Source: a virus
Lineage: Duplodnaviria; Heunggongvirae; Uroviricota; Caudoviricetes
IMG/VR virus record: IMGVR_UViG_2636415673_000006
Strand: one strand, 5' to 3'
DNA length: 44,007 nt
Shown: positions 11,819-44,007 of the stretch, one piece after another
Layout: each line of letters begins with the position of its first letter
How positions within the stretch are numbered: position 1 is the first letter of the stretch
Program-made: the position numbers and the translations under genes
The notes under the pieces: model-generated
What the model was told of the DNA's origin: nothing
What the model saw: the letters and a program-made list of their open reading frames with translations, nothing else
The model's database searches: none

Positions 11819-13345
11819 ATGAAAAAAGCCATAGCATATATGCGATTTTCATCACCAGGTCAGATATCTGGTGACTCATTAAACCGACAGAGAAGACTTA
11901 TTGCTGAATGGTTAAAGGTAAATAGTGATTATTATCTTGATACCATAACATATGAAGATTTAGGATTAAGTGCATTCAAAGGAAAGCATGCACAATCAGG
12001 AGCTTTTTCGGAATTTTTAGATGCTATAGAGCATGGTTATATATTGCCAGGAACTACATTGTTAGTTGAAAGTCTGGACAGACTTTCAAGAGAAAAAGTC
12101 GGTGAAGCGATTGAACGTCTGAAATTGATTTTGAATCACGGTATTGATGTTATAACTCTTTGCGACAATACAGTCTATAATATTGACTCTTTGAATGAGC
12201 CATATTCATTAATAAAAGCCATACTTATAGCACAAAGGGCAAATGAAGAAAGCGAGATAAAGTCAAGTCGGGTTAAATTATCATGGAAGAAAAAACGGCA
12301 GGATGCACTGGAATCAGGTACGATTATGACGGCGTCTTGTCCGAGATGGCTCTCATTGGATGACAAAAGAACGGCTTTTGTTCCAGACCCCGACAGGGTG
12401 AAAACTATTGAGCTAATTTTTAAACTCAGGATGGAAAGGCGCTCATTGAATGCAATAGCCAAGTATTTAAATGATCATGCTGTAAAGAATTTCTCAGGAA
12501 AAGAAAGTGCATGGGGACCTTCTGTAATTGAAAAATTATTAGCGAATAAAGCTCTGATAGGTATATGCGTACCTTCATATCGTGCAAGAGGGAAAGGGAT
12601 AAGTGAAATCGCTGGCTATTATCCCAGAGTCATATCAGATGATTTGTTTTACGCTGTACAGGAAATTCGGTTGGCACCTTTTGGTATTAGCAATAGTAGC
12701 AAGAATCCTATGCTAATAAATCTACTTCGAACAGTTATGAAGTGTGAGGCTTGTGGTAATACCATGATTGTTCATGCGGTATCTGGAAGTTTGCATGGCT
12801 ATTATGTTTGTCCGATGAGAAGATTACATCGATGTGACAGGCCATCAATAAAAAGAGATTTGGTTGATTATAATATCATTAATGAATTGCTTTTTAATTG
12901 TAGCAAAATTCAACCAGTTGAAAACAAGAAAGATGCTAATGAAACTTTAGAGTTAAAAATTATTGAGCTTCAGATGAAAATTAATAATTTAATTGCTGCA
13001 TTATCTGTTGCGCCTGAAGTTACCGCTATAGCAGAAAAAATCAGAGTATTAGATAAGGAATTACGAAGGGCTTCTGTATCATTAAAAACTTTGAAGAGTA
13101 AAGCGGTGAGCTCACTTGGTGATTTTCATGCTATTGACTTAACCAGTAAAAATGGGCGAGAGCTATGTCGTACACTTGCCTATAAAACATTCGAAAAAAT
13201 CATAATCAATACAGATAATAAAACCTGTGATATCTATTTTATGAATGGCATTGTTTTTAAACACTATCCTTTAATGAAAACAATATCCGCCCAGCAGGCG
13301 ATAAGTACTCTCAAATATATGGTTGATGGTGAGGTTTATTTTTGA
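11819..13345 (+). CDS. ybcK: Large serine recombinase (resolvase/invertase N-domain + recombinase domain + zinc ribbon), YbcK-like
   Basis: 508-aa ORF; N-terminal serine-recombinase motif (AIAYMRFSSPGQ...SLDRLSRE) and C-terminal Cys cluster (CEACGNTM...YYVCPMRRLHRC); AT-rich gene. Confidence 0.8.
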   Translation: MKKAIAYMRFSSPGQISGDSLNRQRRLIAEWLKVNSDYYLDTITYEDLGLSAFKGKHAQSGAFSEFLDAIEHGYILPGTTLLVESLDRLSREKVGEAIERLKLILNHGIDVITLCDNTVYNIDSLNEPYSLIKAILIAQRANEESEIKSSRVKLSWKKKRQDALESGTIMTASCPRWLSLDDKRTAFVPDPDRVKTIELIFKLRMERRSLNAIAKYLNDHAVKNFSGKESAWGPSVIEKLLANKALIGICVPSYRARGKGISEIAGYYPRVISDDLFYAVQEIRLAPFGISNSSKNPMLINLLRTVMKCEACGNTMIVHAVSGSLHGYYVCPMRRLHRCDRPSIKRDLVDYNIINELLFNCSKIQPVENKKDANETLELKIIELQMKINNLIAALSVAPEVTAIAEKIRVLDKELRRASVSLKTLKSKAVSSLGDFHAIDLTSKNGRELCRTLAYKTFEKIIINTDNKTCDIYFMNGIVFKHYPLMKTISAQQAISTLKYMVDGEVYF

Positions 13346-16334: not shown

Positions 16335-16419
16335 AGTCAGAGATAACAATCAACTAATACTGTTTTGTTGATTTTTGCTTGTAATTGGCGTTCTGGTCTG
16401 AGTTTTGTGGAGTAAGTTG

Positions 16420-16797
16420 ATGCGTGATATTCAGATGGTTCTTGAGCGTTGGGGAGCGTGGGCGGCTAATAATCATGAAGATGTGACCTGGTCGTCCATT
16501 GCCGCCGGTTTTAAGGGATTAATTCCTTCAAAAGTAAAATCTCGCCCGCAATGTTGTGACGATGACGCGATGATCATTTGCGGGTGCATGGCCCGTCTGA
16601 AAAAGAACAACAGCGATTTGCATGATTTATTGGTGGACTATTATGTCGGCGGCATGACTTTTATGGCGCTTGCACGTAAGCATGGGCGATCTGATTGTTG
16701 GGTTGGCAGGATGCTCCAGAAAGCTGAGGGCGTAGTGGAGGGTATGCTGATGGTGTTGGATCTCCGATTGGAGATGGATGCTGATTGTTCGAAATAA
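16420..16797 (+). CDS. quuD: Late-gene antiterminator Q (phage-82/DLP12 QuuD type)
   Basis: [24 protein letters not shown]... with a Cys cluster ([12 protein letters not shown]); position immediately upstream of tR' and the lysis genes. The track ORF starts at 16405. Confidence 0.8.
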
Positions 16798-20116: not shown

Positions 20117-20613
20117 TGCCTCCATCATTACGAAAAGCCGTTGCTGCTGCTATTGGTGGCGGAGCAATTGCTATAGCATCAGTGTTAATCACTGGCTCAA
20201 GTGGTAACGATGGTCTGGAGGGTGTCAGCTACATACCATACAAAGATATTGTTGGTGTATGGACTGTATGTCACGGGCATACAGGAAAAGACATCATGCT
20301 CGGTAAAACGTATACCAAAGCAGAATGCAAAGCCCTCCTGAATAAAGACCTTGCCACGGTCGCCAGACAAATTAACCCGTACATAAAAGTTGATATACCG
20401 GAAACAACGCGCGGCGCTCTTTACTCGTTCGTTTACAACGTGGGCGCTGGCAATTTCAGAACATCGACGCTTCTTCGCAAAATAAACCAGGGCGATATCA
20501 AAGGCGCATGTGATCAGCTACGTCGCTGGACATATGCTGGCGGTAAGCAATGGAAAGGTCTCATGACTCGTCGTGAGATTGAGCGTGAAATCTGTTTGTG
20601 GGGTCAGCAATGA
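20116..20613 (+). CDS. rrrD: SAR endolysin (T4-lysozyme-like glycoside hydrolase, phage-21 R type)
   Basis: 165-aa ORF with N-terminal signal-anchor-release segment ([26 protein letters not shown]) and lysozyme-like body. Confidence 0.85.
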
Positions 20614-21074
20614 ACAGAGTAACCGCGATTATCTCCGCTCTGGTTATCTGCATCATCGTCTGCCTGTCATGGGCTGTTAATCATTACCGCGATAACGCCA
20701 TTACCTACAAAGCCCAGCGCGACAAAAATGCCAGAGAACTGAAGCTGGCGAACTCGACAATTACTGACATGCAGGTGCGCCAGCGTGATGTTGCTGCGCT
20801 CGATGCAAAATACACGAAGGAGTTAGCTGATGCGAAAGCTGAAAATGATGCTCTGCGTGATGATGTTGCCGCTGGTCGTCGTCGGTTGCACATCAAAGCA
20901 GTCTGTCCGGACAAGCATAAAACCACCGCCGCCTCCGGCGTGGATGATGCTTCCAGCCCCAGACTTACTGACACCGCTCAACGGGATTATTTCGTTCTCA
21001 GAGAGCGCATCGAAACCATAACTAACCAATTGAATGGCCTGCAAGAATATGTGAGATCACAGTGTTCATATTAG
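20610..21074 (+). CDS. Rz: Rz i-spanin
   Basis: [47 protein letters not shown]... closely resembles lambda Rz; the track ORF starts at 20598. Confidence 0.85.
20830..21021 (+). CDS. Rz1: Rz1 o-spanin lipoprotein (embedded in Rz, +1 frame)
   Basis: [23 protein letters not shown]... with lipobox and proline-rich stretch (KPPPPPAW), nested within Rz as in lambda. Confidence 0.75.
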
Positions 21075-21112
21075 AAAAGTCTTATCATTAGATTTTTGTA
21101 TATGGATGCATT

Positions 21113-21487
21113 ATGTCTCAATACGCTCACGTTGCTTTAATCGCTTATCATTTGGTGGCTGATAGCTCAATGACTCCTCGTGATGCATGGGATGCAGCTG
21201 TCGCAGAGGTTACAGAAAGCGAATCGTCAAGAAAGAAGATATGCCCAAGGGCAACATTTCTCGCCCTGGCGGATAGCGGTTACCTCAAGAATGTAAAACC
21301 ACTGCATGGGGAGAAAAAGGGCGGTAAGTTGTACCAAAGGGCAATTGAAGTTGCGAATCTGATTCTTGATTTACCCGGAATCAGTAAAGCTGAATTGGTT
21401 GATAAAACTGGTTACAAAGACAGGCAAGGGTCTTATGACCTGATTCTCGCTCTGTATCATCATGAGCAACTCCAGCGATCGGAATAA
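21113..21487 (+). CDS. Hypothetical protein
   Basis: 124-aa ORF after the lysis cassette; no recognised motif. Confidence 0.45.
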   Translation: MSQYAHVALIAYHLVADSSMTPRDAWDAAVAEVTESESSRKKICPRATFLALADSGYLKNVKPLHGEKKGGKLYQRAIEVANLILDLPGISKAELVDKTGYKDRQGSYDLILALYHHEQLQRSE

Positions 21488-21604
21488 TTATCCCAGCATC
21501 AGTGTCAAAAATAGGCAGTGATACGCTATTTTCCTGAAAATACTTTACTAACATTTTATGAGAATTATCCTAGTGATGTGTTTATTTAAAAGGAGTTTGG
21601 GTTT

Positions 21605-21808
21605 ATGAAAATTCTCTGGGTCATCAGTCTTTTGTGTAGTGCTATTGGATTTATTGAAGGAATCCTCGGGGTTTTCGGTGCTCAGAGTGCTCCACAACAG
21701 GCTGCAGGTGCAGCAATGGGAGTAGCATGGGCAGTTATTCCATATTGTATTTGTCGTGCTATCCAACAATTGCGCCCTCGAGAAGTCATTATTAAAAAGG
21801 AAGAATGA
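21605..21808 (+). CDS. Small membrane protein (YbcW-like)
   Basis: 67-aa hydrophobic ORF; position matches DLP12 ybcW. Confidence 0.4.
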   Translation: MKILWVISLLCSAIGFIEGILGVFGAQSAPQQAAGAAMGVAWAVIPYCICRAIQQLRPREVIIKKEE

Positions 21809-29886: not shown

Positions 29887-30057
29887 ATGTTTGTGAAACC
29901 TGTTAAAGGGCGGTCAGTGCCTGACCCTGCCCGCGGCGACCTTTTGCCCGCCGAAGGGCGAAATGTTGACGAGAACAACTACTGGCTGCGCCGTGAAGCA
30001 GCGGGTGATATCCGGCGCGTGAATAAAAAGGTGAATACCGATGACGATAAGCTTTAA
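29887..30057 (+). CDS. Small protein upstream of sheath (Mu-like tail-module small ORF)
   Basis: Hand-translated 56-aa ORF MFVKPVKGRSVPDPARGDLLPAEGRNVDENNYWLRREAAGDIRRVNKKVNTDDDKL overlapping the sheath start. Confidence 0.3.
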   Translation: MFVKPVKGRSVPDPARGDLLPAEGRNVDENNYWLRREAAGDIRRVNKKVNTDDDKL

Positions 30058-31537
30058 CACCATTCCGTCGAATACGCTGGTTCCGTTGTTTTATGCGGAA
30101 ATGGATAACCAGGCGGCGAATACTGCACAGGACAGCGGAGCATCGTTGCTGATTGGTCACGCCAATAACGGTGCAGAGATTGTTGCCAACAGTCTGGTGC
30201 TGATGCCGTCGGCAGACTATGCACGCCAGATTTGTGGTGCGGGAAGTCAGCTGGCGCGTATGGTCGAGGCTTATCGCCAGACCGACCCGTTTGGCGAGCT
30301 GTATGTGATTGCCGTTCCGGAAGCCGCAGGCGCGGCGGCAACGGTTACTCTGACGGTGACCGGGGCGGCAACCGAAACCGGCACGGTGAATGTGTATGTG
30401 GGACATACCCGCGTGCAGGCACCGGTGACCAACGGCGATAACGTCGCGACCATTGCCAGCAGTATCCAGGATGCTATCAATGCCGTTCCGGCCCTGCCGT
30501 TTACGGCCTCATTTTCGGCTGGCGTGGTCACACTGACCGCGCGTCATAAGGGACTTTGCGGGAATGAAATTCCTGTCAGCCTCAATTACTACGGCTTTGG
30601 TGGGGGCGAAGTGCTGCCAGCGGGTGTACAGATTGCTGTGGCGACGGGTACCGCCGGAACGGGCGCTCCTGTTCTCACCGGTGCGGTGGCTGCAATGGCG
30701 GATGAGCCGTTTGATTATATCGGTCTGCCGTTCAACGACACGGCCTCCGTTAACACGCTGGTGACCGAGATGAACGATACCAGCGGTCGCTGGAGCTATG
30801 CGCGTCAGCTGTATGGTCATGTGTATACGTCAAAGACCGGTACGCTGTCAGAACTGGTGACCGCAGGTGACCAGTTTAACCAGCAGCACATTACCCTGGC
30901 GGGGTACGAAAAAGAAACCCAGACACCTGCCGACGAGCTGGCGGCAAGCCGTACCGCCCGCGCAGCGGTGTTTATCCGCAACGATCCGGCACGTCCCACG
31001 CAGACCGGTGAGCTGGTGGGTATGCTGCCTGCGCCGAAGGGGAAACGGTTCACGATGACCGAGCAGCAGACCCTGCTGTCTCATGGCGTGGCAACGGCGT
31101 ATGTCGAAAGCGGGGTACTGCGCATTCAGCGTGATGTCACCACGTACAGGAAAAATGCTTACGGGGTTGCGGATAACAGCTACCTCGACAGCGAGACGCT
31201 GCATACCAGCGCGTATGTGCTGCGCAAACTGAAATCCGTCATTACCAGTAAGTACGGGCGTCACAAGCTTGCCAGTGACGGTACCCGCTTTGGTCCCGGT
31301 CAGGCGATTGTCACCCCGGCGGTGATCAAAGGGGAACTGCTGGCAACCTACCGTCAGCTTGAGCGTGCGGGGATCGTGGAAAACTACGAACTGTTTAAGC
31401 AGTACCTGGTTGTGGAGCGTGATGCCAGCGATCCGAACCGCCTGAACACGCTGTTCCCGCCTGACTATGTTAACCAGTTGCGTGTCTTTGCCGTGGTTAA
31501 CCAGTTCCGTCTTCAGTATTCAGAGGAGTCCGCATAA
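30041..31537 (+). CDS. Contractile tail sheath protein (Mu gpL-like)
   Basis: 498-aa ORF followed by a ~118-aa tube gene, a frameshifted chaperone pair and a tape measure: the Mu-like myovirus tail arrangement. Confidence 0.7.
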   Translation: MTISFNTIPSNTLVPLFYAEMDNQAANTAQDSGASLLIGHANNGAEIVANSLVLMPSADYARQICGAGSQLARMVEAYRQTDPFGELYVIAVPEAAGAAATVTLTVTGAATETGTVNVYVGHTRVQAPVTNGDNVATIASSIQDAINAVPALPFTASFSAGVVTLTARHKGLCGNEIPVSLNYYGFGGGEVLPAGVQIAVATGTAGTGAPVLTGAVAAMADEPFDYIGLPFNDTASVNTLVTEMNDTSGRWSYARQLYGHVYTSKTGTLSELVTAGDQFNQQHITLAGYEKETQTPADELAASRTARAAVFIRNDPARPTQTGELVGMLPAPKGKRFTMTEQQTLLSHGVATAYVESGVLRIQRDVTTYRKNAYGVADNSYLDSETLHTSAYVLRKLKSVITSKYGRHKLASDGTRFGPGQAIVTPAVIKGELLATYRQLERAGIVENYELFKQYLVVERDASDPNRLNTLFPPDYVNQLRVFAVVNQFRLQYSEESA

Positions 31538-31893
31538 TGGCCCGTATCGGGGGAACCTGTTATTTCAAAATTGACGGTCAGCAGCTATCGCTGACCGGCG
31601 GCATTGAGGTGCCCATGAACAGGACGGTCAATGATGACATCATCGGCCTGGACGGTTCAGTGGACCGCAAGGAAACTCACCGTGCGCCTTATGTCAAAGG
31701 GACCTTCAAGGTGCCGAAGAATTTTCCGGTGAGCAAAATCACCTCGTCTGATGAGATGACCATCACTGCCGAGCTGGCGAACGGTCAGGTCTATGTACTG
31801 TCGTCTGCCTGGCTGCACGGCGAAGCGAACCATAATGCCGAAGAAGGCACGGTCGATCTTGAGTTCCACGGTGAAGAAGGGGATTACCAGTAA
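31537..31893 (+). CDS. Tail tube protein (Mu gpM-like)
   Basis: 118-aa ORF directly after the sheath gene. Confidence 0.6.
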   Translation: MARIGGTCYFKIDGQQLSLTGGIEVPMNRTVNDDIIGLDGSVDRKETHRAPYVKGTFKVPKNFPVSKITSSDEMTITAELANGQVYVLSSAWLHGEANHNAEEGTVDLEFHGEEGDYQ

Positions 31894-32162: not shown

Positions 32163-32311
32163 CGGCTGAATACCTCACTGATCGCTTCTTTGACTGCGCC
32201 AGCTACTGGCGCATTAATCCCTTCGAATTGCTGAATATGCCGATCAGTGAAATTCCCTTGCTGGTCAGTCAGGCAAACAGGATAGAGCAGGAGAAACGCA
32301 CACATGGCTGA
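32129..32311 (+). CDS. Tail assembly chaperone frameshift extension (-1 frame)
   Basis: ORF in the -1 frame relative to 31893..32162, overlapping it and ending at the tape-measure start; predicted fusion about 139 aa. Confidence 0.5.
   Translation: MACGWFFPPGLTAEYLTDRFFDCASYWRINPFELLNMPISEIPLLVSQANRIEQEKRTHG
32144..32150 (+). other. Programmed -1 ribosomal frameshift slippery site (T TTT TTC)
   Basis: Heptamer TTTTTTC in the zero frame of the chaperone ORF, 10 nt before its stop; the -1 frame stays open to 32311. Confidence 0.5.
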
Positions 32312-34145
32312 ATTTGAGCTTAAGGCGTTGATCACCGGTGTCGACAGGCTTTCTCCCGCGCTGTCGAAAATGCAAAAGAAAATCCGGGGATTTAAACGCC
32401 AGGCGGAAGAAGCGTCACAGGGTGGGCTGGCGCTTGGTGGCGGACTGGCTGCGGGTCTGACGCTTTCCCTGAAATCTTATGCCGATCAGGAAAACGCCGC
32501 CACCGGGCTGAAAGTCGCCATGATGGATGCGAACGGCGAGGTTGGAAAGAGCTTTCAGGACATCAATAAACTGGCTATTGGTCTGGGTAACCAGCTACCC
32601 GGTACAACGGCTGATTTCCAGAACATGATGCAGATGCTGGTGCGTCAGGGGATCCCGGCAGAAAACATTCTGGGTGGTGTGGGTAAAGCGACAGCTTATC
32701 TTGCGGTACAACTGAAAAAAACACCGGAAGCGGCTGCTGAGTTTGCTGCAAAGATGCAGGATGCTACCGGAACGGCGTCAGAAGACATGATGGGGCTGTT
32801 CGACACTATCCAGAAGGCGTTTTATCTTGGCGTTGACGATACCAACATGTTGTCCTTCTTCACTAAAACCAGTTCTGTTCTGAAGATGGTGAACAAGGAC
32901 GGTCTTCAGGCTGCACAGAGCCTTGCCCCCATCAGCGTCATGATGGATCAGATGGGGATGAACGGGGAGTCGGCAGGTAATGCCCTGCGAAAAGTTATCC
33001 AGTCCGGATTAAGCGTTAAGAAAATCAGGGACGTCAATAAAGTCATGGCCCGCCAGAAACTCGGGGTACAGCTCGATTTTACTGACGGCAAAGGAAGTTT
33101 TGGCGGTCTTGATAACATGTTCAGGCAACTGGCAAAGCTGCGAAAACTGACCGACGTTAAGCGAACAGGTGTACTTAAGGCAATATTTGGTGATGATGCC
33201 GAAACCCTTCAGGTGGTCAATGCACTAATCGATAAAGGAAAGGATGGCTACGATCAGATCCAGCAGAAGATGAATAAACAGGCCAGCCTGAATAAACGTG
33301 TTCAGGCCCAGCTTGGTACGCTGTCCAACCTGTGGGAGGCAATGACGGGGACCGCAACTAACGGCCTTGCGGCTATTGGCGGCGCATTTTCTGGTGACGC
33401 CAAAAATATCACGCAATGGCTGGGGGAGTTAGGGGAAAAATTCACGAAGTTTGCGGATGAAAATCCCCGGGTTATTCGCGGCGTCGTCGGGCTTGCTGCC
33501 GGTCTTGCGATTCTGAAACTGGGATTGATGGGCGTTGGCGGGGCCATCAGTATTGTCAGCAGGATCATGTCGATGACGCCGATTGGAATGATTGCGACGG
33601 CGATAGCCCTGGCTGCGGGATTAATTATCACTAACTGGGATGTTGTCGGACCTTATTTCAAGAAGCTCTGGGAAACCATTGGTCCTTATTTTGAGGCTGG
33701 CTGGGAACTTCTGAAGAAGGTTTTTGCCTGGTCGCCGCTGGGGATGGTAATCAATAACTGGGGACCGGTTGTTAAGTGGTTTCAGGATATGTGGGACAAG
33801 CTGAAGCCAATTATTGAGTGGTTTACCGACAGTTCCGGTGACACGGTCGATGCCATTAACTCTGCGCAGTGGGGCGCGGGTGCTTATGATGCTTATGGGA
33901 CGGGATTCCCGGCGCGGGGATACACACCTTATCCGGCGATGGATCCGGCTCAGGCAAACAACGCCTCCGATGCCACAGGCCCGAATCCCTTCATGATTAA
34001 CAAAGCTTCTGCGCCAAAAGTTGACGGTGAGATCAAGGTCTCTTTTGTGAATTCGCCTCCGGGTATGCGGGTTATGGAAACGCGATCCAGCGGTATCGAC
34101 GTGAATCACGACGTTGGCTACACCCGATTTGGTATGGGGGGCTGA
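32304..34145 (+). CDS. Tail tape measure protein
   Basis: 613-aa ORF, alpha-helical and Ala/Gly-rich with internal TM-like segment (VVGLAAGLAILKLGLMGVGGAISIV). Confidence 0.75.
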   Translation: MAEFELKALITGVDRLSPALSKMQKKIRGFKRQAEEASQGGLALGGGLAAGLTLSLKSYADQENAATGLKVAMMDANGEVGKSFQDINKLAIGLGNQLPGTTADFQNMMQMLVRQGIPAENILGGVGKATAYLAVQLKKTPEAAAEFAAKMQDATGTASEDMMGLFDTIQKAFYLGVDDTNMLSFFTKTSSVLKMVNKDGLQAAQSLAPISVMMDQMGMNGESAGNALRKVIQSGLSVKKIRDVNKVMARQKLGVQLDFTDGKGSFGGLDNMFRQLAKLRKLTDVKRTGVLKAIFGDDAETLQVVNALIDKGKDGYDQIQQKMNKQASLNKRVQAQLGTLSNLWEAMTGTATNGLAAIGGAFSGDAKNITQWLGELGEKFTKFADENPRVIRGVVGLAAGLAILKLGLMGVGGAISIVSRIMSMTPIGMIATAIALAAGLIITNWDVVGPYFKKLWETIGPYFEAGWELLKKVFAWSPLGMVINNWGPVVKWFQDMWDKLKPIIEWFTDSSGDTVDAINSAQWGAGAYDAYGTGFPARGYTPYPAMDPAQANNASDATGPNPFMINKASAPKVDGEIKVSFVNSPPGMRVMETRSSGIDVNHDVGYTRFGMGG

Positions 34146-34226
34146 TACCCCGCTTAAACACGGGTTTTGTCGTTTAGCAGGTTCTTGGTAGGATTAGTCC
34201 GATACTTTAATGATGGGAATAGGGAT

Positions 34227-34904
34227 ATGAAAGTCTTAACAATTTATTCAGTTGTCGGCATGGCTCTTTTACTCGGGGGATGTACCTCTCCGAAGTACAA
34301 TTATTTACCAAAAACAGAAAATTATAGTGAACCTCCTGTAGGAAGCATTAATACAGCTTATGTCGGTGATTCAATGATTAAGCAGGGGGTGTCACAGAGG
34401 TTTGAAGGTCTGAAGGTTAATGCTCCTGCGAGAATTTCCTGGGCGTATACGATCACTCCGGGGATGCTGAAAAAGGTTGGTGAGGATAACAAGGCTGATT
34501 ATTACTTTCTCACAAACGGTGCTGATTCAGCCAATGTGGAAAAGGCAGCCCTTGCCGATATGTGGCAGGGCATCATGGTAGAAAAGAAAAAGAATGCCTT
34601 ATGTGTAATAACAGTTTTCGGTGTTACCAACTGTGAAACTAACATGCCTATCGAAAAGGTTACTCTGAATATCAGTGGTGATTCATCTTTCCAGCAAGCT
34701 CTGCTTTACAACGGAAGGGTCGGAAACAAAATCAACATTGGATATCGTGAATTTTCATCGAATACAGCACGCCCGGCCTTCAACAACGATGTTGAGTATG
34801 ATCTCGCGGAGTCTAAAACAATTGGCTATAAAGGGGCTAAATTCGAAGTACTTGATGCGAGTAACCAAAGCATAAGGTATCGGGTAATAAGTAACTTTAG
34901 ATAA
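34227..34904 (+). CDS. Lipoprotein of unknown function (moron inside tail module)
   Basis: Signal peptide plus lipobox (MKVLTIYSVVGMALLLGGCTSP); AT-rich relative to flanks; followed by its own terminator. Track ORF begins at 34167. Confidence 0.65.
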   Translation: MKVLTIYSVVGMALLLGGCTSPKYNYLPKTENYSEPPVGSINTAYVGDSMIKQGVSQRFEGLKVNAPARISWAYTITPGMLKKVGEDNKADYYFLTNGADSANVEKAALADMWQGIMVEKKKNALCVITVFGVTNCETNMPIEKVTLNISGDSSFQQALLYNGRVGNKINIGYREFSSNTARPAFNNDVEYDLAESKTIGYKGAKFEVLDASNQSIRYRVISNFR

Positions 34905-34918
34905 GCGATAATTTAATG

Positions 34919-34943
34919 AAACCCGCTTCGGCGGGTTTTTTTA
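34919..34943 (+). terminator. Rho-independent terminator after the lipoprotein moron
   Basis: aacccgc-ttcg-gcgggtt followed by T7. Confidence 0.7.
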
Positions 34944-34957
34944 TATCCGGAGTTTAT

Positions 34958-36286
34958 ATGACGTGGAAAGACAGACTTCAGGACGCGTCATTTCGCGGCG
35001 TGCCGTTTAAGGTTGAAGAAGAAAGTGCGGGAACCGGTCGTCGTGTGGAAACGCACGAATACCCGAACCGCGACAAACCCTATACCGAAGACCTGGGGAA
35101 AATCACTTTCCGCCCGTCCATCACGGCTTATGTGGTGGGAGATGACTGCTTTGACCAGCGCGATCGCCTGATTGACGCGCTGAATAAACCCGGTCCCGGC
35201 ACGCTTGTCCATCCGACTTACGGTGAGCTGAAAGTCTGTGTTGACGGAGAAGTTCGGGTCAGCACATCGAAGAGTGAAGGGCGTATTGTCCGCTTTGACC
35301 TGAAGTTTGTCGAAGCGGGAGAACTCTCTTACCCCACATCAGGTGCGGCGACGGCGCAGACGCTGATGTCATCCTGTTCTGCACTGGATGACTGCATCAG
35401 TGACAGTTTCAGTAGTTTCAGTATCGATGGCGTGGCAGATTTTGTGCAGAACGATGTCGTCGGTAATGCCAGCACAATGCTTGGGTATGTTTCTGATGCG
35501 ATGAAAGTGGTGGATTTTGCCGTATCGGATGCCGCCAGGCTGTTGCAGGGGGATATCTCGGTACTTCTGCCGCCGCCATCGTCAGGCAAAAATTTCGTTG
35601 AGCAGGTGCAGAAAATGTGGCGTACCGGGAAACGCCTTTATGGTAACGCCAGCGACCTGGTCACCATGATCAAAACGCTTTCCGGTGTCAGCCTCGGCAG
35701 CGATCTGCAACCGCGCGGCGTCTGGAAAACGGACAGTAAAACCACCGCCACGGCGACGCAGCAGCGTAACGTGGTTGCCAGCATCCTTCGTACGACCGCA
35801 ATCAGCGAAGCGGCGTATGCCGTCACCCGATTGCCTGCGCCAACAACTTCCGCGGTGATGCAGAATGCCGCAGTGGGGCAGGCAACAACACCCGCGCAGA
35901 GCTCCGGCTGGCCTGCCGTCACGCATCCGGTGCTGAACAATGCACCGGCGGTGAAAAACACGGTTGACCTGCCAACGTGGGAAGAACTGACCGACATTCG
36001 CGACACACTGAATATGGCAATTGATAAGGAGTTGTCCCGTACAACCAGTGATGCGCTGTTTCTGGCGCTGCGCCGGGTGAAAGCAGATCTGAATGCGGAT
36101 ATCAACACGCGCCTTGAACAGTCTGCTCGGATCATTCAGCGCACGCCGGATGAGGTTTTACCCGCGCTGGTGCTGGCGGCGGCCTGGTTTGATAACGCGG
36201 CGCGTGACGCGGACATTATCCGGCGTAATGCCATTACGCATCCCGGCTTTGTGCCGGTGATCCCTCTGAAGGTGCCAGTGCAATGA
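34958..36286 (+). CDS. Mu-like DNA circulation protein (gpN-like)
   Basis: Start placed at the internal ATG (MTWKDRLQDASFRGVPF) after the terminator, with RBS GGAG; the track ORF start at 34916 lies inside the terminator hairpin. Confidence 0.6.
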   Translation: MTWKDRLQDASFRGVPFKVEEESAGTGRRVETHEYPNRDKPYTEDLGKITFRPSITAYVVGDDCFDQRDRLIDALNKPGPGTLVHPTYGELKVCVDGEVRVSTSKSEGRIVRFDLKFVEAGELSYPTSGAATAQTLMSSCSALDDCISDSFSSFSIDGVADFVQNDVVGNASTMLGYVSDAMKVVDFAVSDAARLLQGDISVLLPPPSSGKNFVEQVQKMWRTGKRLYGNASDLVTMIKTLSGVSLGSDLQPRGVWKTDSKTTATATQQRNVVASILRTTAISEAAYAVTRLPAPTTSAVMQNAAVGQATTPAQSSGWPAVTHPVLNNAPAVKNTVDLPTWEELTDIRDTLNMAIDKELSRTTSDALFLALRRVKADLNADINTRLEQSARIIQRTPDEVLPALVLAAAWFDNAARDADIIRRNAITHPGFVPVIPLKVPVQ

Positions 36287-37362
36287 ACGACAATGTCACG
36301 CTACGGGTAAATGGCCGGGAGTGGAATGGCTGGACATCGGTGCGCATCGGTGCCGGTATTGAACGGCTGGCGCGGGATTTCAGTGTGGAGATCACCCGCC
36401 AGTGGCCGGGAGATGAGGGTATCACCACGCTTCAGCCGCGCATTAAAAACGGTTCAAAAGTGGAAGTGCTGATTGGTGATGAGCTGGTGATCACCGGCTG
36501 GGTGGAGGCGACTCCCGTTCGTTACGATGCCCGTTCGGTCAGCACCGGTATTGCCGGACGTAGTCTGACCGCTGACCTGATTGACTGTGCAGCCGAACCG
36601 ACACAGTTTAACGGACGATCGCTGGTACAGATTGCGCAGGCGCTTGCTGCGCCTTTCGGCATTGAGGTGGTGAACAACGGTGCACCGTCGGATGTTATTC
36701 CTGATGTCCAGCCTGATCACGGTGAAACGGTGATCGAGGTGATCAACAAAATACTCGGTCAGCAGCAGGCGCTGGCTTATGACGACCCGCACGGCAGGCT
36801 GGTGATTGGCGGTATTGGCTCAACGCGGGCACATACCGCGCTGGTACTTGGGGAAAACATCCTTTCCTGTGATACGGAGAAGAGTGTTCGGGAGCGTTTT
36901 TCAGTTTACCAGGTGGCGGGGCAGCGTGCCGGAAACGACGATGATTTCGGTGAGGCCACCACCACCGCGCTGCGGGCCCGCACAGAGGACGCATTTATTG
37001 CCCGTTACCGTCCGATGTATATCAGGCAGACAGGGCAGGCCACGGGGGCAGGCTGTATTGCCCGTGCTGACTTTGAAGCCCGGCAACGGGCGGCGCGGAC
37101 GGATGAAACCACCTATGTGGTGCAGGGCTGGCGACAGGGTAACGGTACGCTGTGGCAGCCCAACCAGCGGGTGATTGTCTTTGATCCGGTCTGTGGTTTC
37201 GACAATACCGAACTGCTTGTTTCGGAAGTCACGTTTACTCAGGACCAGAACGGCACCCTGACGGAAATCCGTGTCGGCCCGCCTGATGCTTATCTGCCTG
37301 AACCCGAAGCCCCCGGCGCGCGGAAAAAGAAAAAATCCAGAGTACAGGAGGACCCGTTCTGA
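36283..37362 (+). CDS. Mu gpP-like tail/baseplate hub protein
   Basis: 359-aa ORF in Mu-like order after the DNA circulation gene. Confidence 0.55.
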   Translation: MNDNVTLRVNGREWNGWTSVRIGAGIERLARDFSVEITRQWPGDEGITTLQPRIKNGSKVEVLIGDELVITGWVEATPVRYDARSVSTGIAGRSLTADLIDCAAEPTQFNGRSLVQIAQALAAPFGIEVVNNGAPSDVIPDVQPDHGETVIEVINKILGQQQALAYDDPHGRLVIGGIGSTRAHTALVLGENILSCDTEKSVRERFSVYQVAGQRAGNDDDFGEATTTALRARTEDAFIARYRPMYIRQTGQATGAGCIARADFEARQRAARTDETTYVVQGWRQGNGTLWQPNQRVIVFDPVCGFDNTELLVSEVTFTQDQNGTLTEIRVGPPDAYLPEPEAPGARKKKKSRVQEDPF

Positions 37363-41584: not shown

Positions 41585-42709
41585 TTAAGATATTCTTTTA
41601 GCTATAGAATGACCTATATTTATAAACGGTTTTTCTATTACGTTATATATCAAGTAAGATAGGCTTATAGAAATTATGAGCGATGATATATAAATGGCAA
41701 ACGATCTATGTTCAGTGCTAACACCAATGCTGGAACCGTAAAACTCAATAAACTGTATAACAGGAACATGAATCAGATAAAGTGAATATGATATTCCACC
41801 AAGAGCAACAAGTGATTTATTGAATGAAATAACTTTATTATTTTCTAGAATAATAACACATAAAACAATCAGAAATGCAATATATGCAGATCGCGTCAAA
41901 CCATGTCCTTCAGACACCCCATTAAGCCAAAAAACAAACATCATTCCTAGAATGAAAACGCATAAACTATTTATAATAGCATTATTCATTCTTTTATGCC
42001 TAAGTAAAGGCATTGTCTCTGATATAATCATCCCTAAAATGAAATCATATACTATAGGGTTGCCTATGAATCCTATATGAGAAAACACTCCTGTTTTTGC
42101 AATATTGAATGATTGGGCGTCAATTACTACCGAGTGGTTAAAGTAAAGAGAAATAATTGTACTTACAGCAACTAGAAAACATGATGTGATTAATACCCTG
42201 TATTTTATACTTAATGACATGGATATTGCGAAAATAAAATAAAAATATATCTCGTACCCAAGTGACCATGAAACAATTAGCGTTCCCCACCCATAATATG
42301 GCGGTAGAGTTGAGCCATCTAAAGGGATGAGAAGAAATGATTTTATAATATTATTTATAGAAAAAACACCACCCCATGATACGCCTGTGTAAATATTGTG
42401 GTAAAAAAGAAAAACATAAACGCTTAATACTATTGCGTAAACAGGATAAATTCTAAAAAATCTCTTTACAAGAAATGAAGCGGTATTTCTTAAAGATGTT
42501 TTTGCTAAGTTTTTAGTTGAGTATGATATTATAAATCCGCTTATTATAAAAAACAATTCAACTCCAAATATAGCATTCGCGGTTATCTTGTCCATGAAAG
42601 AACCAGGATCTACTTGCCCGAAAAGACCTCTATTATGACCAATAGCTACAGCAAGAGCTGCAATTCCACGAAGCGCTTCTATTCCGTATAATTTATCTGT
42701 TTTCATCAA
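41585..42709 (-). CDS. Acyltransferase family 3 integral membrane protein (putative O-antigen/LPS O-acetyltransferase, lysogenic-conversion gene)
   Basis: 374-aa polytopic membrane ORF with the family N-terminus (LYGIEALRGIAALAVAIGHN); extremely AT-rich; located between tail fibre genes and integrase. Confidence 0.75.
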   Translation of the reverse strand: MMKTDKLYGIEALRGIAALAVAIGHNRGLFGQVDPGSFMDKITANAIFGVELFFIISGFIISYSTKNLAKTSLRNTASFLVKRFFRIYPVYAIVLSVYVFLFYHNIYTGVSWGGVFSINNIIKSFLLIPLDGSTLPPYYGWGTLIVSWSLGYEIYFYFIFAISMSLSIKYRVLITSCFLVAVSTIISLYFNHSVVIDAQSFNIAKTGVFSHIGFIGNPIVYDFILGMIISETMPLLRHKRMNNAIINSLCVFILGMMFVFWLNGVSEGHGLTRSAYIAFLIVLCVIILENNKVISFNKSLVALGGISYSLYLIHVPVIQFIEFYGSSIGVSTEHRSFAIYISSLIISISLSYLIYNVIEKPFINIGHSIAKRIS

Positions 42710-42849: not shown

Positions 42850-44007
42850 CTATGATACCTTCTCCTCAATCCAATCCGCCCACCACTGCATCATTTCTCT
42901 GCGCTTATCGAGATACTGAGCATGGTTGTAAATCCCGCGCACAGATCCGCCGTTGGCATGTGCCAGTTGCACTTCAATAGCATCAGCAGGCCATTCGTGC
43001 TCGTTCATAATCGTGCTGAATTCATGCCTGAATCCGTGACCGCTTTCCAGACCTTCATAGCCGATTTGTTTGATCACAAGCAGTACAGCGTTCTCGCAAA
43101 TTGGCTTCTTCTTATCGTTGCGCCCGGCAAAAACAAACTCTGATACTGGTTTGGTGATTGAACTTAGCGTAGTGAGAAGTTCAACTACCTGGTCTGACAT
43201 AGGAACCACATGAATTTTGCGTCCCTTCATCACACTGGCGTCGATGGTGATAATCCTGTTTTCAAAATCGACGTTCTTCCATAGCATGGAACGAAGCTCT
43301 TTTGTTCTGAGGGCAGTGTAGCGTAAAACTTTGGTCGCAATGAGCGATACGATACTTCCTGAAAATGTTGCCAGTGCTTTGTTGAATGCCGGGATCTGGT
43401 CTGCAGGAAGAAACGGGAAGTTCTTCTTGCGGTATCCTTTCATGGCGTCAGCAAGGTCAGGTGCCGGGTTATATTTAGCCCTGCCTGTGACAATAGCGTA
43501 ACGGAAAACCTCGCCGCATCTTCTGCGGGCTTTATTGGCTCGTTCCATTGCGCCGCGATCTTCAAATCTGCGGATTACTTCCAACAGTTGCATCGGCTCA
43601 ATATCCTGAATTTCAAGGCCGCCGATGATGGGTAAAATGTCGTCATCAAACATTTTTGCAAGTTCATTTGCATAGCCTACTGACCAGACTTGCTTCTTGT
43701 GCTCGTACCATTCCTTGTAAATGGCGCTAAAGGAGTTGTTGTTAGACGAAGCCTTTTTCGCTTTTACCGGATCGATGCCAACCGAGATGTCTTTCCTCGC
43801 AGTCCATGCTTTATCCCTTGCCTCCTGCAAAGTCATAAGCGGATATTTTCCTACGGTCAGTATTTTTTCCTTACCGTCAATCTTGTAGCGAAGCTGCCAT
43901 ACCTTTTTCCCGGATACAGGGACATAAAGGTACAGGCCATTACCATCGAGAAGGCGGTATGGTTTTTCTTTCGGCTTTGCTGCTTCAATCTGCTTAACGG
44001 TGAGCAT
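42850..44007 (-). CDS. int: Tyrosine integrase (P4/DLP12 IntD type)
   Basis: 385-aa ORF whose ATG is the last codon of the window (MLTVKQIEAAKPKEKPYRLLDGNGLYLYV...); C-terminal catalytic region HGFRHEFSTIMNE...AHANGGSVRGIYNHAQY contains the conserved R/H/R/Y residues. Confidence 0.9.
   Translation of the reverse strand: MLTVKQIEAAKPKEKPYRLLDGNGLYLYVPVSGKKVWQLRYKIDGKEKILTVGKYPLMTLQEARDKAWTARKDISVGIDPVKAKKASSNNNSFSAIYKEWYEHKKQVWSVGYANELAKMFDDDILPIIGGLEIQDIEPMQLLEVIRRFEDRGAMERANKARRRCGEVFRYAIVTGRAKYNPAPDLADAMKGYRKKNFPFLPADQIPAFNKALATFSGSIVSLIATKVLRYTALRTKELRSMLWKNVDFENRIITIDASVMKGRKIHVVPMSDQVVELLTTLSSITKPVSEFVFAGRNDKKKPICENAVLLVIKQIGYEGLESGHGFRHEFSTIMNEHEWPADAIEVQLAHANGGSVRGIYNHAQYLDKRREMMQWWADWIEEKVS

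What the first reader, a model, noticed from the sequence alone, without database searches (positions are those of the whole stretch)
34167..34943. Lipoprotein moron with its own terminator inserted inside the tail module
Between the tape measure and DNA circulation genes lies an AT-rich gene encoding a lipoprotein (lipobox LLGGC) of unknown function, followed by a strong hairpin plus T7 terminator. The terminator overlaps the first 14 codons of the track ORF for the downstream gene, so that gene likely starts at the internal ATG at 34958. Such lipoproteins often mediate superinfection exclusion or host envelope modification.
Basis: seen in the sequence. Interest (0 to 1): 0.55.

Follow-up and report, generated by a model that had tools for sequence, protein, structure and literature searches.

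The report
Prophage lipoprotein moron beside tape measure
An SfV-like E. coli prophage carries a foreign, self-contained gene for an outer-membrane lipoprotein of unknown function, placed at a cargo-swapping site between two tail genes; this is a textbook "moron", a good candidate for a phage-exclusion factor but not a new kind of element.

Summary
The gene is a 225-aa lipoprotein (ATG 34227 to stop 34904, not TTG 34167) with GC 0.42 against 0.53-0.54 in the flanks. A strong hairpin plus seven T follows at 34918-34942.

Comparative genomics confirms a moron. SfII, SfI and SfV match both flanks at about 97% identity but lack the gene. Of 1094 E. coli genomes with these flanks, only 53 carry it. 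At least four other cargos occupy the same junction, and all encode exported or membrane-anchored proteins.

"Its own terminator" is only partly right: the empty junction also has one, though copies of the gene elsewhere bring their own.

The protein belongs to a very large uncharacterised family (PHROG 1353; 3102 clusters at 50% identity, many phyla). It has no Pfam, PADLOC or structural relative. It occurs singly at accessory sites of unrelated phages, an ICE and genomic islands, often beside defence genes.

A promoter-like block with an RcsB-box-like palindrome travels with the gene in enterobacteria.

Function is untested. My best guess is envelope-level exclusion of incoming phages.

The parts
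32304..34145 (+). Tail tape measure gene (upstream backbone gene). Its last few codons already differ between cargo variants.
   Evidence: Pfam PhageMin_Tail 9.9e-27 and PHROG tape-measure families; C-terminal ends compared.
34148..34168 (+). Decayed hairpin plus T run (CCCCGCTTAAACACGGGTTTT) at the 5' edge of the cassette. It is homologous to an intact terminator at the same place in the Klebsiella aerogenes copy (ACCCGCTTAACTGCGGGTTTT).
   Evidence: Sequence; box-anchored upstream comparison of cassette copies. No significant fold in the window itself (z = +1.28).
34167..34194 (+). Promoter-like element: -35 TTGTCG (34167-34172), 16-nt spacer, -10 TAGGAT (34189-34194), 8 of 12 matches. This is below the scan threshold and is inferred from conservation only.
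   Evidence: A TTGxxx hexamer lies 15-16 nt upstream of TAGGAT in window, L006, L017, L018, L011 and L063. The consensus scan did not report it.
34189..34202 (+). Conserved pseudo-palindrome TAGGATTAGTCCGA, 38 nt upstream of the ATG. It fits the published RcsB-box consensus TN(G/A)GAN4TC(T/C)NA.
   Evidence: consensus from PMC7913699. Kept in 7 of the 12 enterobacterial copies scanned, in 3 sequence variants, and in 0 of 70 non-enterobacterial copies.
34227..34904 (+). Lipoprotein gene, 225 aa: signal peptide residues 1-18, lipobox LGGC, Cys19 (34281-34283), Thr at +2, family-conserved Cys126 and Cys136, all-beta mature part.
34918..34942 (+). Intrinsic terminator: 9-bp stem with a TTCG loop, then seven T.
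   Evidence: -16.4 kcal/mol, z = -3.05. Analogous terminators end the other + strand cargos and the empty site.
34949..34960 (+). RBS GGAG (34949-34952), 5-nt spacer and the true ATG (34958) of the DNA-circulation gene. This is the conserved 3' boundary of the cargo site.
   Evidence: GGAGT(T/G)TAT-ATGACGTGGAAAGA precedes the gene in the empty site and all + strand cargos; the ATG itself is shared by all variants. DNA_circ_N model position 2 aligns to residue 7 of the 442-aa form. RefSeq start in L006.
34958..36286 (+). Mu gp43-like DNA-circulation / baseplate hub gene (downstream backbone gene).
16405..16797 (+). Q-like antiterminator of the same prophage. It explains how late transcription can pass a terminator inside the tail operon.
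   Evidence: PHROG 79, anti-termination protein Q-like, 1.3e-51. Role of Q in SfV-type phages: PMC3851460.

Best explanation
The feature is a genuine moron: a horizontally acquired, insulated single-gene cassette. From 5' to 3' it has a terminator remnant, a weak sigma-70-like promoter overlapping a conserved palindromic operator, the lipoprotein gene and an intrinsic terminator. It sits at a cargo-exchange hot spot between the tape measure and gp43-like genes of an SfV-like, Q-regulated E. coli prophage.

Shown here:
- The gene is absent from most otherwise near-identical tail modules, so it is not a tail part.
- The junction carries alternative cargos.
- The product has a canonical lipoprotein signal.
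- The family is under strong purifying selection and travels as a single gene among unrelated phages, an ICE and genomic islands.

Inferred:
- The protein is lipidated at Cys19 and sorted to the outer membrane, because residue +2 is Thr and is never Asp in the 78 family signal peptides read. A disulphide (Cys126-Cys136) stabilises its all-beta domain in the periplasm.
- In the lysogen it is transcribed from its own promoter, possibly modulated by the Rcs envelope-stress regulator through the palindrome. The downstream terminator stops this transcription from entering the baseplate genes.
- During lytic growth, Q-modified polymerase reads through the terminator.

Most likely function: the protein protects the lysogen at the envelope, most probably by blocking a post-adsorption step of entry by superinfecting phages. 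Its target would be a component common to diderm envelopes rather than one particular receptor.

How likely: moron status about 0.9; outer-membrane lipoprotein about 0.8; phage/MGE exclusion as the specific function about 0.35.
For: Moron status:
- SfII, SfI and SfV match both flanks at 96.6-97.2% identity with the gene missing. The empty junction is 60 bp.
- 1094 of 5426 E. coli genomes have the flanks; 53 have the gene. The gene is found in 55 genomes. Both copies whose neighbourhood I inspected sit at this same junction, one of them on a 100-kb plasmid.
- Other cargos at the junction occur in 85, 178 and 79 genomes.
- GC is 0.42 against 0.53 in the flanks.

Cassette:
- A roughly 60-80 bp upstream block travels with the gene into different contexts: L017, L018, L011, L063.
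- A terminator follows the gene in L018, L063 and L099 as well.
- A Q antiterminator is present in the window.

Protein:
- All but a few (truncated or mis-started) of the 78 species-level copies read show a lipobox, and none has Asp at +2.
- Cys19, Cys126 and Cys136 are invariant in the 69-sequence alignment and at least 90% conserved in the 134-sequence alignment.
- dN/dS is 0.05-0.12.
- The AF2 model has pLDDT 91.9 and is all-beta.

Envelope or exclusion role:
- All four alternative cargos have N-terminal signal or anchor sequences.
- Homologues sit in the P2 gpA-portal (old/tin) defence hot spot of Fels-2 (hot spot described in 10.1101/2024.10.15.618418).
- Other homologues lie next to a retron-like RT in a Geobacter island, next to Shedu on an ICE, next to HicAB/Arc-Mnt and an AAA_15 ATPase directly after the tape measure gene in Providencia, and next to a DUF4258/HTH gene pair in an Acinetobacter phage.
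- Precedent: the HK97 gp15 moron, also adjacent to a tape measure gene, blocks DNA entry (PMC3594210).
Against: - No conserved partner gene in 80 species-level loci.
- Some copies lie in apparently ordinary chromosomal surroundings, for example Photobacterium.
- The promoter is weak (8 of 12) and was not called by the scan. The gene is co-oriented with the late operon and will also be made late in infection, so a lytic-cycle role is possible.
- The RcsB-box match is a degenerate consensus that is not enriched in the window as a whole (3 found, 2.15 expected). Its position overlapping the putative -10 would fit repression better than activation.
- Association with defence genes was read from a handful of loci. 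It is not a statistical enrichment.
Confidence: 0.45

Rival explanations
1. The lipoprotein benefits the lysogen in a way unrelated to phages. Examples are resistance to serum or complement (as lambda Bor and TraT do), to lysozyme or other envelope-attacking enzymes, to bacteriocins or type VI effectors (as an orphan immunity protein), or general envelope-stress tolerance under Rcs control.
For: The family spreads across very distant diderm phyla at 40-50% identity, which points to a universal envelope target rather than a phage receptor. Some copies lie outside recognisable mobile elements. The RcsB-box-like operator would fit an envelope-stress regulon, which includes lipoproteins such as osmB (PMC7913699). 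Outer-membrane lipoprotein morons with non-phage roles are known, for example Bor (cited in PMC3594210).
Against: No similarity to Bor, TraT or lysozyme-inhibitor families in Pfam or to any solved fold. No adjacent effector or toxin gene in 80 loci. Neighbours, where recognisable, are more often anti-phage genes.
Confidence: 0.3
2. The gene acts in the lytic cycle rather than in the lysogen. It would be transcribed with the tail genes from the Q-antiterminated late promoter. Its product could mask or inactivate a receptor or envelope component so that progeny are not wasted on cell debris (as phage T5 Llp does), or it could otherwise condition the envelope before lysis.
For: It has the same orientation as the late operon and lies only 81 nt after the tape measure gene. 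No canonical promoter was detected. The prophage has a Q antiterminator that would carry transcription through both hairpins. In several siphoviruses the gene also lies within the tail operon next to the tape measure gene.
Against: The cassette carries a conserved promoter-like and operator block and is bracketed by terminators, which only makes sense for expression independent of the operon. Homologues occur on an ICE, on islands and on chromosomes with no lytic cycle. In Fels-2 the gene sits in the early/accessory region, not among the late genes.
Confidence: 0.12
3. It is a structural or assembly component of the tail or baseplate that the first reader mistook for cargo.
For: Its position between the tape measure and baseplate hub genes, and its recurrent adjacency to tape measure genes in four phage lineages.
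Against: It is absent from the isolated, plaque-forming phages SfII, SfI and SfV, whose flanks are about 97% identical, and from about 95% of E. coli prophages with this module. Unrelated genes replace it. A lipoprotein signal peptide directs export from the cytoplasm, where tails assemble. Homologues occur outside phages.
Confidence: 0.02
4. It is a functionless passenger, or a decaying remnant of a transfer event.
For: No function can be assigned. It has low prevalence (55 of 5426 genomes).
Against: dN/dS is 0.05-0.12 between alleles. The ORF is intact in the copies examined. The family has 3102 clusters at 50% identity with near-invariant motifs. Regulatory flanks are conserved.
Confidence: 0.05

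Closest known systems
HK97 gp15 moron (the first element called a moron; a superinfection exclusion protein)
   Same: An extra gene inside a tail operon directly beside the tape measure gene, with GC content unlike its neighbours and its own expression signals. It encodes an envelope protein and has homologues outside phages (PMC3594210).
   Different: gp15 is a small inner-membrane protein of the YebO family and lies upstream of the tape measure gene. This protein is a 225-aa lipoprotein predicted for the outer membrane, is unrelated in sequence and lies downstream of the tape measure gene. The exclusion activity of gp15 is demonstrated; nothing is demonstrated here.
Receptor-blocking phage lipoproteins: T5 Llp and the Cor proteins of phi80/N15/HK022
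   Same: Phage-encoded lipoproteins exported to the outer membrane that act on the envelope of the producing cell. Cor is described in PMC3594210; Llp is from my own knowledge.
   Different: Those are small (about 60-80 residues mature), restricted to enterobacterial phages and specific for FhuA. This family is about 205 residues mature, spans many phyla and has no sequence (Pfam) or fold similarity to anything solved.
Lambda Bor / plasmid TraT outer-membrane lipoproteins
   Same: Lipoproteins encoded by mobile elements and expressed in the carrier cell. TraT is of similar size and mediates surface exclusion (own knowledge). Bor is an outer-membrane lipoprotein moron (cited in PMC3594210).
Cargo hot spots of temperate phages (P2 old/tin and Z/fun sites)
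   Same: A fixed junction between two conserved genes holds mutually exclusive, low-GC accessory genes. A homologue of this very lipoprotein sits in the P2-type gpA-portal hot spot of Fels-2 and Klebsiella P2-like phages.
   Different: The junction here (tape measure / gp43-like in SfV-like Mu-type tails) was not described as a hot spot in the papers I could search. Its cargos are all single small exported proteins rather than multi-gene cytoplasmic defence systems.
PHROG 1353 (phage protein family of unknown function)
   Same: Full-length profile match, E = 1.5e-98, residues 1-225 to profile positions 1-227 of 230. The protein is a member.
   Different: Nothing. The family has no annotation, so membership names the protein without explaining it.

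Membership tests
Moron (as defined by Juhala/Hendrix and summarised in PMC3594210) | Extra DNA present in one phage and absent at the same position in close relatives | tested here: met
   SfII, SfI and SfV match both flanks at about 97% identity without the 758 bp. 53 of 1094 E. coli genomes with the flanks carry the gene.
Moron | Base composition different from surrounding genes | tested here: met
   GC 0.416 against 0.53 and 0.54 in the flanks. The same holds for homologues in Fels-2, Klebsiella and Acinetobacter phages.
Moron | Own terminator | tested here: met
   Hairpin plus seven T at 34918-34942, -16.4 kcal/mol, z = -3.05. Copies in other contexts also end in a terminator. Caveat: the empty junction of SfII has one too.
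Moron | Own promoter | tested here: inconclusive
   No site passes the consensus scan. A conserved TTGxxx-N15/16-TAGGAT arrangement (8 of 12) travels with the gene in six copies.
Moron | Expressed from the repressed prophage | not testable with these tools
   Needs a lysogen transcriptome or a reporter fusion.
Bacterial lipoproteins (Lgt/LspA/Lnt substrates) | Signal peptide with a positively charged n-region, a hydrophobic core and a lipobox ending in Cys | tested here: met
   MKVLTIYSVVGMALLLGGC. The lipobox is readable in all but a few (truncated or mis-started) of 78 species-level homologues. Cys19 is invariant.
Bacterial lipoproteins | Actual acylation and globomycin-sensitive processing; outer-membrane localisation | not testable with these tools
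   Outer-membrane sorting is inferred only from the absence of Asp at +2 and the E. coli Lol-avoidance rule (own knowledge).
PHROG 1353 | Full-length match to the family profile | tested here: met
   E = 1.5e-98, residues 1-225 against profile positions 1-227 of 230.
Known exclusion or serum-resistance lipoproteins (Llp, Cor, Bor, TraT, Ltp) | Sequence or fold homology to the family | tested here: not met
Catalogued anti-phage defence systems (PADLOC-DB 2.0) | Match to a defence-protein model | tested here: not met
   0 families at E <= 1.
RcsB regulon | RcsB box TN(G/A)GAN4TC(T/C)NA in the regulatory region | tested here: met
   TAGGATTAGTCCGA at 34189-34202. Kept in three sequence variants in enterobacterial copies only. 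Consensus from PMC7913699. The motif is degenerate and not enriched window-wide.
RcsB regulon | RcsB binding and Rcs-dependent expression | not testable with these tools
   Needs EMSA or footprinting and reporter assays in rcsB and Rcs-activated backgrounds.
Tail structural or assembly proteins of Mu-type tails | Conserved presence and position in related tail modules | tested here: not met

The most novel reading that the evidence does not exclude
PHROG 1353 lipoproteins are a new, very widespread, single-gene, envelope-level barrier against incoming phages or other mobile DNA. They would act from the outer membrane on a component shared by all diderm bacteria. Phages, ICEs and islands would trade them as an insulated cassette. 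In enterobacteria the cassette would be wired to the Rcs envelope-stress relay through a conserved RcsB-type operator. The tape measure / gp43 junction of SfV-like prophages would then be a previously unrecognised hot spot dedicated to such exported exclusion factors.
Probability: 0.25. Interest if true: 0.7.

Novelty: new member of a known kind. Interest (0 to 1): 0.42.

Why it matters
On its own this is a textbook moron, and the protein family is already catalogued, though unannotated. The value lies in three follow-on points.

- **A well-defined cargo junction.** One fixed junction inside a common E. coli/Shigella prophage tail module occurs in about 20% of complete E. coli genomes. It swaps at least five states, and every cargo seen is a small exported protein. 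That gives a natural, ready-made panel for testing envelope-level superinfection exclusion.
- **A large unexplained family.** The lipoprotein family has 3102 clusters at 50% identity across many phyla, is highly conserved, and has no Pfam entry or structural relative. A phenotype found in E. coli would therefore annotate thousands of genes.
- **A testable regulatory link.** The conserved RcsB-box-like operator suggests a connection between host envelope-stress signalling and prophage accessory genes.

None of these points is established here.

Tried and rejected
Searches that found nothing for the lipoprotein:
- Pfam, NCBIfam and PADLOC scans. The only NCBIfam line (a prepilin-dependent pilin, 17 bits against a 138-bit cut-off) is noise.
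- Pfam scan of 134 diverse family members, looking for fused or cryptic domains. It returned only the generic lipid-attachment motif and single stray hits. One of these was a capsid fusion, probably a gene-calling artefact.
- PDB sequence-profile search.
- Rfam on the whole window: no family.
- Full-text searches for 'phrog_1353', 'STM2726' and SfV/SfII moron descriptions: no functional study of the family or of this junction.

Approaches that failed or were too weak:
- The AFDB Foldseek library was not available.
- Folding of the 5' intergenic region gave no significant structure (z = +1.28), so I dropped the idea of a 5' UTR riboregulator.
- Clustering all neighbours in 80 species-level loci to find a conserved partner gene found none. 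The best cluster, which looks like an integrase from its N-terminal sequence, is present in only 7 loci.
L017 and L018, both evident prophages, scored only 1. I do not quote a prophage fraction from it.

Ideas considered and rejected:
- A structural tail protein.
- A spanin; the prophage has its own Rz-like spanin at 20598-21074.
- A TTG start at 34167; no homologue extends upstream.
Full report
**What is there.** The window between about 28 and 41 kb is a Mu-type contractile tail module. Its genes are:
- sheath, 30041-31537
- tube, 31537-31893
- tape measure, 32304-34145 (Pfam PhageMin_Tail, 9.9e-27)
- a gp43-like DNA-circulation gene (DNA_circ_N, 6.3e-34)
- a gp44/P-like hub, 36283-37362
- further baseplate genes and a tail fibre

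The rest of the window is lambdoid. It has a CI-like repressor, a CII-like activator, an O-like initiator, NinB, RusA, a Q-like antiterminator at 16405-16797, an endolysin and an Rz-like spanin. An O-acetyltransferase and an integrase lie at the right end. The whole is an SfV/SfII-like serotype-converting type of prophage. A 1701-bp query spanning the gene (33700-35400) is 100% identical to E. coli strain LSC52.

**Checking the observation.**
- The ORF listed mechanically runs 34167-34904 from a TTG.
- The real start is ATG 34227. The product is 225 aa and begins MKVLTIYSVVGMALLLGGC. Every homologue and the PHROG profile align from that Met.
- The gene has GC 0.416, against 0.53 and 0.54 in the flanking 500 bp.
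- Fourteen nucleotides after the stop codon there is a 9-bp stem (core CCCGC-TTCG-GCGGG) followed by seven T (34918-34942). It folds at -16.4 kcal/mol, z = -3.05 against shuffles.
- So the lipobox, the AT-richness, the terminator and its overlap with the long ORF 34916-36286 are all real. Only the start coordinate needed correcting.

- Megablast of 33000-36500 against phage genomes finds SfII, SfI, SfV and vB_EcoM-689R6 at 96.6-97.2% identity on both sides, with 758 bp missing.
- In SfII the tape measure stop and the gp43 ATG are 60 bp apart.
- Among 5426 complete E. coli genomes, 1094 carry the flanks and only 53 carry the gene between them.
- The gene itself is found in 55 genomes. The two copies whose neighbourhood I inspected, one on a 100-kb plasmid, carry a 94.8%-identical allele at this same junction.
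- The junction has at least four other occupants. Their counts come from cargo-specific searches, and I did not verify the junction position copy by copy:
  - a 170-aa low-GC gene in phage SKA5, in 85 genomes
  - a 176-aa gene, in 178 genomes
  - two length variants of a minus-strand 'OB-fold protein', in 79 genomes
- The gene is therefore dispensable cargo at a hot spot, not a structural component.
- All four alternative cargos begin with a signal peptide or membrane anchor.

**The downstream start codon.**
- GGAGTTTAT-ATGACGTGGAAAGA precedes the gp43-like gene in the empty site and in all + strand cargos but one, which reads GGAGTGTAT. The ATG itself is shared by all variants.
- The 14-codon extension upstream is not conserved. 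SKA5 has six T instead of seven, which breaks the frame, and the OB-fold variants lack it altogether.
- Between the window and SfII the hairpin stem differs by paired changes (CCCGC/GCGGG against CCCAC/GTGGG). That is what an RNA stem does, not a peptide.
- The DNA_circ_N model starts at residue 7 of the 442-aa form, and RefSeq annotates that form.

**Whose terminator is it?**
- A hairpin plus T run sits immediately before the gp43 RBS in the empty junction (SfII, -18.7 kcal/mol), in SKA5 and in the 176-aa variant. A terminator is therefore a fixture of the site, and probably the place where cargos are exchanged.
- Copies of this lipoprotein gene in quite different contexts (Citrobacter L018, Pantoea L063, Providencia L099) also end in a terminator of the same type.
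- At its 5' edge the window cassette has a decayed hairpin plus T run (34148-34168). This is homologous to an intact terminator in the Klebsiella aerogenes copy.
- The unit is thus bracketed by terminators. The prophage's Q antiterminator (role described in PMC3851460) explains how late transcription can pass them.

**The 5' region.**
- The consensus scan reports no promoter.
- However, the last 60-80 bp before the ATG travel with the gene into unrelated flanks.
- In six copies a TTGxxx hexamer lies 15-16 nt upstream of TAGGAT. In the window this is TTGTCG at 34167-34172 and TAGGAT at 34189-34194, 8 of 12 matches.
- TAGGAT is the left half of a pseudo-palindrome, TAGGATTAGTCCGA (34189-34202). 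This fits the RcsB box TN(G/A)GAN4TC(T/C)NA defined structurally in PMC7913699.
- The box is retained in three sequence variants in 7 of the 12 enterobacterial copies scanned. It is found in none of 70 copies from other taxa, which lack the Rcs system.
- The motif is degenerate and not enriched in the window as a whole (3 sites, 2.15 expected).
- All three sites in the window lie just upstream of + strand accessory ORFs.
- I treat Rcs control as a lead, not a finding. The box overlaps the putative -10, which would suit repression better than activation.

**The protein.**
- It matches PHROG 1353 (unknown function) over its full length at 1.5e-98. It matches nothing in Pfam, NCBIfam or PADLOC.
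- The family is very large. There are 1067 hits at 90% clustering and 3102 representative clusters at 50% identity with E <= 1e-3.
- The family spans Alpha-, Beta-, Gamma- and Deltaproteobacteria, Nitrospirota, Planctomycetota, Omnitrophica, Gemmatimonadetes and Verrucomicrobia, at 40-50% identity to the E. coli protein.
- All but a few (truncated or mis-started) of the 78 species-level copies read show a lipobox, typically ...GC[AT][ST]P[KQ]Y, and none has Asp at +2. By the E. coli sorting rule (my own knowledge) this predicts an outer-membrane location.
- Cys126 and Cys136 are at least 90% conserved in both alignments, which suggests a periplasmic disulphide. The C-terminal 70 residues (FQQxLxYxG...GYREF...ARPAF...VEYDL...IGYKGA...) are nearly invariant.
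- dN/dS between alleles is 0.05-0.12.

**Where else the gene lives.**
- In Fels-2 and Klebsiella P2-like phages (27% identity, own lipobox, low GC) it sits between gpA/DinI and the portal gene. This is the classical P2 old/tin defence hot spot (10.1101/2024.10.15.618418).
- In Acinetobacter Vieuvirus phages, a Klebsiella aerogenes siphovirus prophage and Citrobacter it lies just upstream of the tape measure gene, among Arc/Mnt/antirepressor genes or a DUF4258/HTH gene pair.
- In Providencia it lies directly after the tape measure gene, next to HicAB, Arc/Mnt and an AAA_15 ATPase.
- In a Geobacter island it abuts the integrase, near a retron-like reverse transcriptase.
- In a gammaproteobacterial ICE it lies between the tra genes and a Shedu gene.
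- In Burkholderiales it lies in an island flanked by H-NS-like genes.
- In Photobacterium its surroundings look chromosomal.
- No neighbour recurs across 80 species-level loci, so it works as a single gene.

**Interpretation.**
- *Shown:* this is an insulated, horizontally mobile, single-gene cassette at a cargo hot spot, encoding a protein with a canonical lipoprotein signal. It is under strong constraint and has no known relative.
- *Inferred:* outer-membrane anchoring, a periplasmic disulphide, expression in the lysogen from its own weak and possibly Rcs-modulated promoter, insulation of the baseplate genes by the terminator, and Q-dependent read-through in lytic growth.
- *Function* can only be argued by analogy and association:
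  - the HK97 gp15 moron, also next to a tape measure gene, blocks DNA entry (PMC3594210)
  - every alternative cargo at this junction is exported
  - homologues keep company with defence genes and sit in a proven defence hot spot
- The very broad phyletic range argues against masking of one specific receptor. It favours a target common to diderm envelopes.
- I rate phage/MGE exclusion at about 0.35, another envelope benefit to the lysogen at about 0.3, a lytic-cycle role at about 0.12, a functionless passenger at about 0.05 and a structural role at about 0.02. The remainder is left for roles not listed.

**Novelty and verdict.** Morons in tail operons have been known since HK97 and HK022, and the family already exists as an unannotated PHROG. 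This is a new member of a known kind, of moderate interest. The more useful results are by-products:
- a well-populated cargo junction in a prophage tail module present in about one fifth of complete E. coli genomes
- a very large lipoprotein family with no Pfam entry and no detectable structural relative
- a conserved RcsB-type palindrome in front of it

All three are cheap to test experimentally.

Noticed in passing
window 34146-34957; L001 2641-2700; L002 2638-3321; L014 738-1420; L015 738-1183; L016 738-1325: The tape measure / gp43 junction of SfV-like prophages is a cargo hot spot with at least five states: empty, this lipoprotein, a 170-aa protein, a 176-aa protein, and a minus-strand OB-fold protein. 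Every cargo encodes a small protein with an N-terminal signal peptide or membrane anchor. The cargos occur in about 55, 85, 178 and 79 of 5426 complete E. coli genomes.
   Followed up: partly
window 21071-21084 and 21559-21572: The only two other matches to the RcsB-box consensus in the window also lie in intergenic DNA just upstream of + strand accessory ORFs. One is 42 nt before ORF 21113-21487 (PHROG 5039, unknown function). The other is 46 nt before an unlisted 67-aa small membrane-protein ORF at 21605-21808 (GC 0.44), between the lysis cassette and the HNH/terminase genes. The total count (3) is no more than chance; only the placement is suggestive.
   Followed up: partly
window 41585-42709 (-) and 42850-44007 (-): An O-antigen O-acetyltransferase-like gene (PHROG 3333, 7.8e-87) lies next to the integrase. 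This is the usual position of the serotype-conversion module in SfV/Sf6-type phages, so the prophage probably modifies its host's O-antigen.
   Followed up: no
window 11819-13345 (+): A 508-aa serine-recombinase-type 'integrase' (PHROG 95, 1.8e-119, with similarity to DNA invertases) sits in the early region, in addition to the tyrosine integrase at the right end. It may be a second mobile element or an inversion system inside the prophage.
   Followed up: no
L005 11475-12062 (Acinetobacter phage Ab1656-2): This phage carries the PHROG 1353 lipoprotein just upstream of its tape measure gene. It also has a second, different annotated lipoprotein gene immediately downstream of the tape measure gene, so both flanks of that gene hold lipoprotein cargo.
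   Followed up: no
H47, NZ_CM183448.1 1244238-1247287: In E. coli strain GCUET01 an IS4-like IS421 element has inserted in this region next to the lipoprotein gene, according to the annotation under the match.
   Followed up: no
window 34100-34145 compared with L001, L002, L014, L015: The last few codons of the tape measure gene differ with the cargo state (...GYTRFGMGG*, ...GYTRFGR*, ...GYTRFR*, ...GYTRFW*, ...GYTRFR*). The recombination boundary therefore lies inside the 3' end of the tape measure gene rather than at its stop codon.
   Followed up: partly
L008 9547-16213 (Photobacterium sp. TLY01): Next to the chromosomal copy of the lipoprotein gene lies a TelA / PLD-like / 1623-aa DUF3686-AAA gene trio that looks like a defence-type module. 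It was not examined.
   Followed up: no
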